Shown one piece after another: positions 3,001 to 6,000 of a stretch of DNA of 64,000 bases. The DNA comes from Escherichia coli. GTDB taxonomy: Bacteria > Pseudomonadota > Gammaproteobacteria > Enterobacterales > Enterobacteriaceae. The DNA lies in assembly GCF_003334405.1 (NCBI RefSeq), contig NZ_QOWM01000009.1; one strand, 5' to 3'. Position 1 is the stretch's first letter; every line of letters begins with the position of its first letter. A program made the position numbers.

Positions 3001-6000
3001 ATTAGCTATTTCGGCTAAAATAGAGACTACATGTCTTCGGTCCATCTCACTTAAGGAGTGTAGTTCCGTTGTAAGTTTTTCCATAGCTTGCACTGCTAAA
3101 TTTCGAACAAGGAATTTTCTGCTGGTAATCTCTAAAAAGATGGCATGGTTTACAATGATTTTTGTTTCCTTTTGATTATTATGAACAACTGTCCATGATT
3201 TCGTTTAAGAATGAAGAGAAATCACTAAACGAACTGAATATATTTTCTGTGCCAATATTATCTCTAATTTCAAAAAAGTTACTTTTAATGTCATAAGTAA
3301 ATATTGAAATGCTATAATCCCCGATCACTAACCGTTCTTGTAGATCAGGGTTTATGAAATCATCATTATTTCTATAAAATTCATTTACGGCAAAAAGGTT
3401 TTTAACTGAAGGTTCTGGAATCGAGAGGCTAAATAATCGTAATCCATTAACTTCGAATCCATCCATTGCTCTTAAAAAAGTAAGATAATCAGGTTGATTC
3501 TTAAAAAGAATACTAACTTCATTACATAACTTCTCCAGGCAATTAGTTGAATTAGAATTAAATTCTATTTGGATTATACTTTCAATAAATGATTCCTTGA
3601 GCGGTGCTTCAAATGGATAGTCTAAATCATTCATCATTTTTATTAATTTATTTATTTGGGTTTTAGTCATCATTTTGTGTGGTCCATAATATTTTTCATG
3701 GGAGGATAAATTGAGCCAGATGGAATGGCCCAGGGAGTGATTTTGCTTTCACCTACTAATATTCCCTTAGCTATTCGTGATTGCATGTTAGTAAAAACTT
3801 TATGATATGGTTCGTTTTCGATTAATACTAAATTTTCGAAATCATTAGTACCACCATCATCTAGAGATAGTTTATGGTGAACATTATAATTTAGAGGAAC
3901 ATTGCCCTTTCTCATTCTTAAAAGGTCTTCGGCGTTGAATCTTCCAGATGCTTCGGAGGTTTTTGCAAGTTTGATAAGAAAATTTTTTCTTACAGTTTTA
4001 TTAAACTCCTTTCGTAAGTTAGCTAAGTCTTTTGAAGGTCTCTTAATGTATATTATTTCTATTATGTCTATACCATCAAGAAGTTTTTGTTGACCTCTAA
4101 GTTTGCCTAAGTAACTATTTATTTCTGTATATGTATCAACATTAGAACGCTTTGTTAAAAGAATAGATGCTGTTGCTATCGCTATGCCCGCTGTTTTTTC
4201 ATTTAGTATTTGATCATAGCCTTTTATTGCATCTCCACCCAGTTTTTCCGCAGTATCTCTGAATCCTTCAATGTTCCCATTGTATACGCCACCAGCAGCA
4301 AGTAGCCTGCCAATAGCTTTGCTGTTTAACGTTTTGAAACGATTATTTGTTTGGTTTTTTGAATTTGGTAAAAACAAACGGTTATAATTTTCAGGGAGTG
4401 CCAAATAGCTGAACTCGGTATTTGCGATAAGATGTTGACAGAGGATAAATTCATAACTAATAGTTATTGTTTCTGTATCCAGTTGGTTTTCAATGATCTG
4501 GTGATGAATAGCCGATAAAAAAGCGCCTCTTAGTTGTATATAATAATACTTTTCCAATCTACCAAATCTATTTATTCGATAGAAGTCAAATCCCATAAAT
4601 AATTGTTCATTATTGTTAATGGAATTAATAAATAATGGAGTGCTTTTATCAATTAATTTACAAAATGTTATACCATGGAACTGTGAACCAAGCCCCGTAT
4701 TATTAATATTATTTAAGAGTGAGAATGTAAATATTTCATCCTCATGCCCGCTCTGCCAACGATTACCTGTAGACTCAGAAGTCCCACAACCTGCGGAGAT
4801 GCTTCCTTGTTGTTCTCCCGTTACTGTCAGGTAAACAATATTACTCATCCCTGAAAAGTCCTTTTATGGCATGCTATTTTATCAATGGCAATATTATGCT
4901 TGTTAATTGTTATTTATTTACTCCAGGAAATTGTAGGCGTATATATTAAAAAATAAAATATTACACTTTAGGAAGTAATTATGAGTTAAATCTCAATATA
5001 TGTATTGGGCAAATAAATACCTTAAAGGAAGGTATGTCGATTTTGAATGACACCCTTTTTCCATCTCAGAAAAAGGGCACTATCTTACTTCACCCGCGCC
5101 ATATAATATGCATCGACATATTCACCATTACGCAATGCGTACTTCTTACCAGTCCCTTCAATTTCAAAGCCGTATTTTTTATAGACCTTAATTGCCGGGG
5201 CGTTATCGACAAACACGGTTAGTTCAATGCGATCTACCCGCAACCAGTTGTCGCACATTTCAATCATCTCTCGCATCAGGGCGCTGGCGACGCCGCGGTT
5301 CTTCCAACGAGAGTCGACACAGATACCAAAATCGGCAACATGACTGCGGCGTGGGCGCTGTTGCACGTCAATGGTGAGATGGCCCACGACGTCTCCATCA
5401 ATACAGGCGACGAGTTGCTTGATGCCGGGACGATCGGCGAGTCGCTCCTGCCACATATGATCGGAAGGATGAGGCACCTGTAGTGTGTTGCAATACACCT
5501 CCGGCTGGGCGTGAATCTGCCTGATGGCCTCGTAATCCCGTGTTTCTGCGTGGCGTATTACTATCTCACTCATTCCTTTGTCCTCTTTGGGGTAAATGTC
5601 CCTTTCAACATCATTGACTTTCAAATGCGAGTCAAATGCATTTTTTTGCAAAAAGTGTTGGACAAGTGCGAATGAGAATGATTATTATTGTCTCGCGATC
5701 AGGAAGACCCTCGCGGAGAACCTGAAAGCACGACATTGCTCACATTGCTTCCAGTATTACTTAGCCAGCCGGGTGCTGGCTTTTTTTTTGATCTTTCGTT
5801 CTCAATTTATCCACGGGAGTGCTTGTGTTCGTTATGCGCACTCCAGTAGGAACCACGTCCGCTTTGCGCTAAGGTGTAAATAACCACCTTAAAAAGGACG
5901 AAATCATGGTCATCAACTGCGCCTTTATTGGCTTCGGCAAAAGCACCACCCGTTACCATCTGCCGTATGTACTTAACCGCAAGGATAGCTGGCATGTCGC

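What the first reader, a model, noticed from the sequence alone, without database searches (positions are those of the whole stretch)
5658..5790. RyhB sRNA locus with Fur-controlled promoter
An untranslated ~90-nt segment between yhhY and yhhX matches RyhB. It has an AT-rich Fur box overlapping the -10 (TATTAT at 5683-5688) and a strong terminator hairpin with a T9 run. It is the only non-coding RNA gene I can support in the window. It also ties to the Fur-regulated feoABC operon 40 kb away in the same window.
Basis: partly seen in the sequence, partly recalled or inferred. Interest (0 to 1): 0.4.

Follow-up and report, generated by a model that had tools for sequence, protein, structure and literature searches.

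The report
E. coli RyhB iron-sparing small RNA
This is the ordinary, already well-studied E. coli gene for RyhB, a small regulatory RNA that Fur switches on when iron runs short; its sequence is identical to the K-12 reference copy.

Summary
Window 5695-5789 (+) is base-for-base identical to ryhB (b4451) of E. coli K-12 MG1655. The whole 332-bp yhhY-yhhX intergenic region (5574-5905) is also identical. Rfam RF00057 (RyhB) scores 83.1 bits against a gathering score of 55, and it is the only Rfam family above threshold in the 64 kb. The promoter is TGGACA, 18 nt, TATTAT (5683-5688). A Fur box at 5674-5692 matches the consensus at 16 of 19 positions and overlaps the -10; no shuffle of the window gave a match this good. 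The locus is in 5425 of 5426 complete E. coli genomes. Its 28-nt core is exact across Enterobacterales, Aeromonas and Vibrionaceae, nearly always with a Fur box upstream. The terminator stem is kept by compensatory changes. RyhB nt 38-46 are perfectly complementary to the sodB start-codon region. Two minor corrections apply. MG1655 annotation places a second ncRNA, AsompR, in the window. The link to feoABC, 40 kb away, is only a shared regulator. Verdict: real, correctly identified, already known, low interest.

The parts
5659..5664 (+). ryhB promoter -35 hexamer, TGGACA
   Evidence: Promoter scan: TGGACA, 18 nt, TATTAT, 10 of 12 matches. Sequence read directly.
5668..5692 (.). Fur operator: two overlapping Fur-box matches 6 bp apart, 5668-5686 (14/19) and 5674-5692 (16/19), covering the -10 hexamer
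   Evidence: It is the only site with 3 or fewer mismatches in the window, and 0 of 100 shuffles gave one. Chen et al. 2007 (PMC2189734) report a 25.2-bit Fur cluster at -15 of ryhB, confirmed by gel shift. A Fur box of at least 14/19 lies upstream of 97% of 116 homologous copies, against 0.35% of control windows.
5683..5688 (+). ryhB promoter -10 hexamer, TATTAT, with 6 nt between the hexamer and the annotated +1
   Evidence: The +1 is taken from the MG1655 annotation.
5695..5789 (+). RyhB small RNA: 95 nt as annotated in MG1655 b4451, about 90 nt as a terminated transcript
   Evidence: 100% identical to MG1655 ryhB. RF00057 covers 5724-5788 at 83.1 bits.
5695..5727 (+). Variable 5' domain, not covered by the Rfam model. 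UCAGG...CCUGA is conserved within Enterobacteriaceae.
   Evidence: Alignment of 31 distinct Enterobacteriaceae-type copies. The helix columns are almost invariant, so covariation neither supports nor contradicts it.
5728..5755 (+). 28-nt invariant core, the target-pairing region. It includes nt 38-46 (5732-5740, GACAUUGCU), complementary to the sodB start-codon region.
   Evidence: The exact 28-mer was found in at least 120 loci of Enterobacterales, Aeromonas and Vibrionaceae. It has 9-nt perfect complementarity to sodB -4..+5.
5756..5762 (+). A/U-rich single-stranded linker (AUUACUU) just upstream of the terminator; inferred to be part of the Hfq-binding module
   Evidence: Unpaired in the MFE and centroid folds. 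The Hfq-binding module concept comes from Morita et al. 2015 (PMC4509938). The role of this stretch is inferred, not tested.
5763..5789 (+). Rho-independent terminator: 7-bp stem AGCCAGC/GCUGGCU with a 5-nt loop (5763-5781), then a T9 run (5781-5789)
   Evidence: Terminator scan and fold. The stem is kept by compensatory changes in homologues: AGCCCGC/GCGGGCU, GCCGGC/GCCGGC, UGCCAGC/GCUGGCA, AGCCCAC/GUGGGCU. Morita et al. 2015 give a hairpin dG of -10.7 and a polyU of 9.
5085..5573 (-). yhhY (N-acetyltransferase), the divergent upstream neighbour
   Evidence: Exact match to MG1655 yhhY; annotation.
5906..6943 (+). yhhX (putative oxidoreductase), the co-oriented downstream neighbour, 116 nt after the T-run
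   Evidence: Exact match to MG1655 yhhX; annotation.

Best explanation
The locus is the E. coli ryhB gene. A sigma-70 promoter (TGGACA, 18 nt, TATTAT) is overlapped by a Fur operator.

When iron is plentiful, Fe2+-Fur occupies the operator and blocks transcription. When iron is scarce, Fur leaves and an RNA of about 90 nt is made from 5695 to the intrinsic terminator at 5763-5789.

The RNA has three functional parts. Its 3' hairpin with the U-tail and the preceding A/U-rich stretch bind Hfq. Its single-stranded, invariant core (5728-5755) base-pairs with the translation-initiation regions of mRNAs for non-essential iron-using proteins, with sodB as the prototype. Pairing blocks translation and triggers RNase E-dependent decay, which spares iron.

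Shown here:
- sequence identity to the characterised gene
- covariance-model membership
- promoter, Fur-box and terminator anatomy
- deep conservation of the core, the Fur box and the terminator helix
- 9-nt perfect complementarity to the sodB start region

Taken from the literature or from established knowledge, not tested here:
- Fur binding to this promoter
- Hfq binding
- RNase E-dependent target decay
- the iron-sparing physiology
For: - Rfam RF00057 scores 83.1 bits against a gathering score of 55, E = 3.6e-14.
- 5695-5789 is an exact match to MG1655 ryhB b4451, and the whole 332-bp intergenic region is identical.
- The promoter and terminator were found by consensus scans.
- The Fur box matches 16/19 and is unique in the window; 0 of 100 shuffles gave a match. 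An overlapping second site lies 6 bp upstream.
- The locus is present in 5425 of 5426 complete E. coli genomes, and 5414 are at least 99% identical.
- The 28-nt core is exact in at least 120 loci across three gammaproteobacterial orders.
- 97% of 116 copies have a Fur box of at least 14/19 within 110 nt upstream, against 0.35% of 2006 control windows from the same loci.
- The terminator stem is maintained by compensatory base changes.
- RyhB nt 38-46 are perfectly complementary to sodB -4..+5, across the AUG.
- Literature: Fur gel shift on the ryhB promoter, 25.2-bit cluster at -15 (PMC2189734).
- Literature: the RyhB terminator with a polyU of 9 is part of the Hfq-binding module (PMC4509938).
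- Literature: iron-sparing function and target set (PMC4666370).
Against: Nothing substantive.

- The whole-RNA fold is no more stable than shuffles (z = -0.67, 48 of 200 shuffles fold as well). This is expected for an sRNA whose seed must stay unpaired.
- PGAP-annotated RefSeq genomes list no feature at this locus. That omission does not contradict the identification, because the curated MG1655 record does annotate ryhB.
- The 5' domain helix has no covariation support in the set examined.
Confidence: 0.98

Rival explanations
1. The segment is part of a protein-coding gene. Mechanical ORFs run through it on the + strand: 5596-5883 (95 aa) and 5688-5849 (53 aa).
For: These ORFs appear in the six-frame list.
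Against: - In homologues, the T-run length varies from 5 to 10 and the terminator loop length also varies, which would shift the frame.
- Sequence downstream of the T-run diverges already in E. albertii (L008) and in another E. coli (L048).
- A 28-nt block is invariant at every position, third-codon positions included, across three orders, while its flanks diverge freely. That is an RNA-type conservation pattern, not a coding one.
- The 53-aa ORF starts upstream of the annotated transcription start.
- MG1655 annotates no CDS here.
Confidence: 0.01
2. The Fur-controlled promoter mainly serves yhhX, and the short RNA is only a prematurely terminated leader. This is how the Fur sites were first assigned, to yhhX.
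For: - yhhX is co-oriented and lies 116 nt downstream, and the scan found no other promoter-like site in 5300-6100.
- Chen et al. 2007 note that Vassinova and Kozyrev assigned these Fur sites to yhhX.
- Morita et al. 2015 measured about 20% readthrough of the ryhB terminator. They state that ryhB 'seems to be co-transcribed' with yhhX, though this is unproven.
Against: - The core is conserved in many genomes at loci other than the yhhX-linked one, including second copies elsewhere in the genome (PMC4211561). Its function is therefore independent of yhhX.
- The core pairs with trans targets such as sodB.
- Readthrough products no longer bind Hfq, and termination is enhanced under the inducing stress.
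- At most this is an additional output of the promoter, not an alternative to the sRNA.
Confidence: 0.02
3. It is a chance or decayed RyhB-like sequence that is not expressed.
For: None found.
Against: - It is 100% identical to the functional K-12 gene, including promoter, operator and terminator.
- It is nearly invariant in 5425 E. coli genomes.
Confidence: 0.005

Closest known systems
E. coli K-12 RyhB (ryhB, b4451; Rfam RF00057)
   Same: Everything tested is the same. The 95-nt gene and the 332-bp intergenic region are identical. It sits between the same neighbours, yhhY and yhhX, and has the same Fur operator, promoter and terminator.
   Different: Nothing in the locus differs. Over the aligned 49 kb the surrounding window differs from MG1655 at 12 substitutions and one 1-bp indel, and it lacks the IS1E insertion in yrhA.
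Salmonella RfrA/RfrB (RyhB-1/RyhB-2) and Yersinia RyhB1/RyhB2
   Same: They share the conserved core, Fur repression and an intrinsic terminator. [quoted passage not shown] The core was exact in two separate loci in many Yersinia, Photorhabdus, Serratia, Pantoea and Pectobacterium genomes.
   Different: Nearly all E. coli genomes carry a single copy: the median is one place per genome. The 5' domains differ between siblings.
Functional analogues: Pseudomonas PrrF1/2, Bacillus FsrA, Staphylococcus IsrR
   Same: They are Fur-repressed small RNAs that carry out an iron-sparing response. This rests on PMC4211561, on titles and abstracts listed, and on established knowledge.
   Different: As far as I know they share no sequence or structural homology with RyhB. 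They are analogues, not family members. This was not tested here.

Membership tests
RyhB (Rfam RF00057) | Score at or above the family's gathering threshold against the covariance model | tested here: met
   83.1 bits against 55, E = 3.6e-14, model positions 1-67 of 67, window 5724-5788 +.
RyhB (Rfam RF00057) | Conserved core / target-pairing sequence GCACGACAUUGCUCACAUUGCUUCCAGU | tested here: met
   Present at 5728-5755. The same exact 28-mer is in at least 120 loci from Enterobacterales, Aeromonas and Vibrionaceae.
RyhB (Rfam RF00057) | Fur box overlapping the promoter (iron-responsive transcription) | tested here: met
   A 16/19 match at 5674-5692 overlaps the -10 hexamer at 5683-5688, with 0 of 100 shuffles giving a match. 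It is conserved in 97% of homologous copies against 0.35% of controls. Fur binding itself comes from the literature: gel shift, PMC2189734.
RyhB (Rfam RF00057) | Rho-independent terminator with a long U-tail, as in Hfq-dependent sRNA architecture | tested here: met
   A 7-bp stem at 5763-5781 plus T9. Compensatory changes keep the stem in homologues.
RyhB (Rfam RF00057) | Complementarity to known target translation-initiation regions (sodB) | tested here: met
   RyhB nt 38-46, GACAUUGCU, is perfectly complementary to sodB -4..+5, AGCAAUGUC. The core duplex is -18.0 kcal/mol; 20 of 1000 shuffled targets did as well.
RyhB (Rfam RF00057) | Orthologous position between yhhX and yhhY (for the E. 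coli / RfrA / RyhB1 orthologue) | tested here: met
   yhhY is at 5085-5573 (-) and yhhX at 5906-6943 (+), both exact matches to MG1655.
RyhB (Rfam RF00057) | Induction on iron limitation or in a fur mutant; Hfq binding; RNase E-dependent decay of targets | not testable with these tools
   These are experimental properties. They are documented for the identical K-12 sequence (PMC2189734, PMC4509938 and PMC4666370).

The most novel reading that the evidence does not exclude
The ryhB promoter may have a second, unproven output. Readthrough of the RyhB terminator, measured at about 20% on a plasmid, could place the downstream oxidoreductase gene yhhX under Fur and iron control. That would make ryhB-yhhX a bifunctional sRNA-mRNA operon comparable to sgrS-setA. 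Morita et al. [quoted passage not shown] The consensus scan found no separate promoter-like site for yhhX in 5300-6100. A weak second terminator-like hairpin sits at 5812-5827.
Probability: 0.3. Interest if true: 0.2.

Novelty: already known. Interest (0 to 1): 0.04.

Why it matters
It matters only as a positive control. RyhB is one of the best-characterised bacterial small RNAs, and this copy is identical to the reference. Confirming it shows that the first-stage reader can recognise a real sRNA gene with its promoter, operator and terminator from raw sequence. No new biology follows from this locus.

Tried and rejected
- **Whole-RNA folding significance.** z = -0.67, uninformative. Stability relative to shuffles is not a useful test for a seed-exposed sRNA.
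- **Unrestricted RNAduplex of full-length RyhB against the sodB leader.** It gave an unrealistically long duplex because intramolecular structure is ignored. I replaced it with the core-only duplex and an exact-complement search.
- **MAFFT plus RNAalifold on 92 distinct core-to-terminator sequences.** The variable loop length misaligned the terminator, so the helix was missed. I replaced this with per-sequence hairpin extraction anchored on the T-run.
- **RNAalifold on the Enterobacteriaceae full-length set.** The UCAGG/CCUGA helix of the 5' domain is nearly invariant, so there is no covariation evidence either way.
- **Reading the primary RyhB papers.** I tried Massé and Gottesman 2002 and Massé et al. 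2005. Neither is held in the library, so the mechanism is cited from papers that are held and from established knowledge.
- **Coding potential of the overlapping ORFs.** Considered and rejected; see the rival explanations.
- **A functional link to feoABC through proximity.** Considered and rejected. The two loci share only Fur as a regulator. The best feoA-upstream Fur-box matches are 13/19, and several other places in the window reach that score.

Full report
**Observation**

The region was read directly.
- TATTAT lies at 5683-5688.
- An AT-rich, Fur-box-like stretch overlaps it.
- A G+C-rich hairpin lies at 5763-5781.
- Nine T follow, at 5781-5789.

The consensus scan pairs TATTAT with TGGACA (5659-5664) across an 18-nt spacer, 10 of 12 matches. 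It also calls the hairpin plus T-run as a terminator with 7 pairs, 5 of them G-C, and a 5-nt loop.

The 19-bp Fur consensus GATAATGATAATCATTATC matches 5674-5692 with 3 mismatches. This is the only such site in 64 kb, and none of 100 dinucleotide-preserving shuffles produced one. A second match of 14/19 is offset by 6 bp, at 5668-5686. That fits the overlapping-hexamer arrangement reported for this promoter by Chen et al. 2007, who describe one strong site overlapping two weaker ones (PMC2189734).

**Identity**

The opposite happened. RF00057 matches 5724-5788 (+) at 83.1 bits against a gathering score of 55, E = 3.6e-14, with the full model aligned. It is the only family above threshold in the window.

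The curated MG1655 record annotates ryhB (b4451) at 3580922-3581016 between yhhX and yhhY. Those 95 nt occur exactly at window 5695-5789. The whole 332-bp yhhY-yhhX intergenic region is identical at 5574-5905.

Over the aligned 49 kb, the window is 99.96-99.97% identical to MG1655. It differs by 12 substitutions, one extra C at 26256, and the absence of IS1E in yrhA. None of these differences lies in or near ryhB.

**Conservation**

Within E. coli:
- The 133-nt stretch 5658-5790 is found in 5425 of 5426 complete genomes.
- 5414 of them are at least 99% identical.
- It is always chromosomal, with a median of one copy per genome.

Beyond E. coli:
- Hits include Escherichia, Citrobacter, Enterobacter, Klebsiella, Yersinia, Serratia, Photorhabdus, Pantoea, Pectobacterium, Dickeya, Aeromonas, Photobacterium, Aliivibrio and Salinivibrio.
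- There are often two loci per genome, as described for Salmonella RfrA/RfrB and Yersinia RyhB1/RyhB2 (PMC4211561).

Among 116 copies with enough flank, 97% have a Fur-box match of at least 14/19 within 110 nt upstream of the core. Only 0.35% of 2006 random 110-nt windows from the same loci do.

Downstream of the core:
- 108 copies have a T-run of at least five within 60 nt.
- The commonest terminator stem, found in 71 copies, is AGCCAGC/GCUGGCU, as here.
- Variants keep pairing through changes on both sides: AGCCCGC/GCGGGCU, GCCGGC/GCCGGC, UGCCAGC/GCUGGCA and AGCCCAC/GUGGGCU.
- Aeromonas uses AGGGCCAG/CUGGCCCU.

The flanks diverge freely. The T-run and loop lengths vary. All positions of the core are invariant. 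This pattern fits an RNA and not a protein, which rules out the mechanical ORFs 5596-5883 and 5688-5849.

**Mechanism**

The anatomy has five parts:
- a sigma-70 promoter occluded by a Fur operator
- a variable 5' domain (5695-5727)
- an unpaired invariant core (5728-5755)
- an A/U-rich linker (5756-5762)
- a terminator hairpin with a U-tail (5763-5789)

The MFE and centroid folds leave much of the core and all of the linker unpaired, and they form the terminator.

As a direct test of the pairing model, I fetched the MG1655 sodB leader. RyhB nt 38-46 (GACAUUGCU, window 5732-5740) is perfectly complementary to sodB -4..+5 (AGCAAUGUC), across the AUG. The core duplex is -18.0 kcal/mol, against -10.6 ± 2.9 for shuffled targets; 20 of 1000 shuffles did as well.

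The rest of the mechanism comes from the literature and established knowledge, not from tests here:
- Fur binds this promoter in a gel shift (PMC2189734).
- The terminator hairpin with a 3'-terminal polyU of 9 is part of the Hfq-binding module. About 20% of polymerases read through it in normal growth. Termination is enhanced on iron depletion (PMC4509938).
- RyhB represses non-essential iron-protein genes, which is the 'iron-sparing' response. It also activates shiA and cirA (PMC4666370).

1. 'Only non-coding RNA gene' holds for Rfam at gathering threshold and for tRNA/tmRNA. However, MG1655 annotates the antisense RNA AsompR (b4842), whose sequence maps exactly to window 49937-50274 (-).
2. 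feoABC is indeed in the window, at 43748-46549 (-), about 40.8 kb away. The best Fur-box matches upstream of feoA are 13/19 at 46657-46681. The connection is a shared regulator and not a physical or operonic link.
3. The terminator is good but not absolute, given about 20% readthrough.

**Comparison, novelty and verdict**

This is not merely a member of the RyhB family. It is the type sequence itself. Every defining feature that can be tested in silico was met; see the membership table. The experimentally defined features are documented for the identical sequence.

Novelty is 'already known' and interest is very low.

The only loose end is not new either. It remains unproven whether readthrough from the Fur-controlled ryhB promoter drives yhhX, as hinted by Vassinova and Kozyrev and noted by Morita et al.. 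It could be settled by a simple RT-PCR or fusion experiment.

Noticed in passing
window 49937-50274 (-): The MG1655 RefSeq record annotates a 338-nt 'small antisense RNA AsompR' (b4842) overlapping the 5' end of ompR. Its sequence is present exactly in the window. ryhB is therefore not the only annotated ncRNA here. It has no Rfam family hit.
   Followed up: partly
window ~3284-3292 (yrhA) and 26256 (glpR): The window is K-12-like, 99.97% identical to MG1655. It lacks the IS1E insertion that splits yrhA in MG1655, so yrhA is an intact 164-aa ORF at 3179-3673. It also has an extra C at 26256, so glpR, a pseudogene in MG1655, is an intact 252-aa ORF at 26106-26864. The source is thus a close relative of K-12 rather than MG1655 itself. 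The top megablast hits, all K-12 derivatives, need two pieces because of the IS1.
   Followed up: partly
window 23026-23108, 38795-38829, 40459-40498, 46926-46963, 61158-61200: There are sub-threshold Rfam hits to naRNA4 (RF02564) and ES036 (RF02751), at 27-35 bits, below gathering. As far as I recall, these families derive from REP elements, so the hits are most likely ordinary intergenic REP repeats and not sRNA genes.
   Followed up: no
window 5812-5827 (+): A second, weak terminator-like hairpin (6 pairs, 3 G-C, interrupted T tract) lies between the RyhB terminator and yhhX. It might affect any ryhB-yhhX readthrough transcript.
   Followed up: no
RefSeq E. coli genomes at the ryhB locus (e.g. 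L001 2575-2906): PGAP-annotated RefSeq genomes list no feature at ryhB ('none' under the match; only yhhY and yhhX). Only the curated MG1655 record carries the ncRNA. An absent annotation in these records is therefore not evidence that an sRNA is absent.
   Followed up: yes
window 46657-46681, upstream of feoA (46322-46549, -): Two overlapping 13/19 Fur-box matches, 6 bp apart, lie about 108-132 nt upstream of the feoA start codon. They are much weaker than the ryhB operator, and several unrelated places in the window reach the same score.
   Followed up: partly
L063 10919-11253 and L083 11696-12029 (Salinivibrio): Two exact copies of the RyhB core lie in tandem about 300 bp apart in two Salinivibrio species, each with its own upstream Fur-box match of 14-15/19. 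This tandem sibling arrangement differs from the distal siblings of Yersinia and Salmonella.
   Followed up: no
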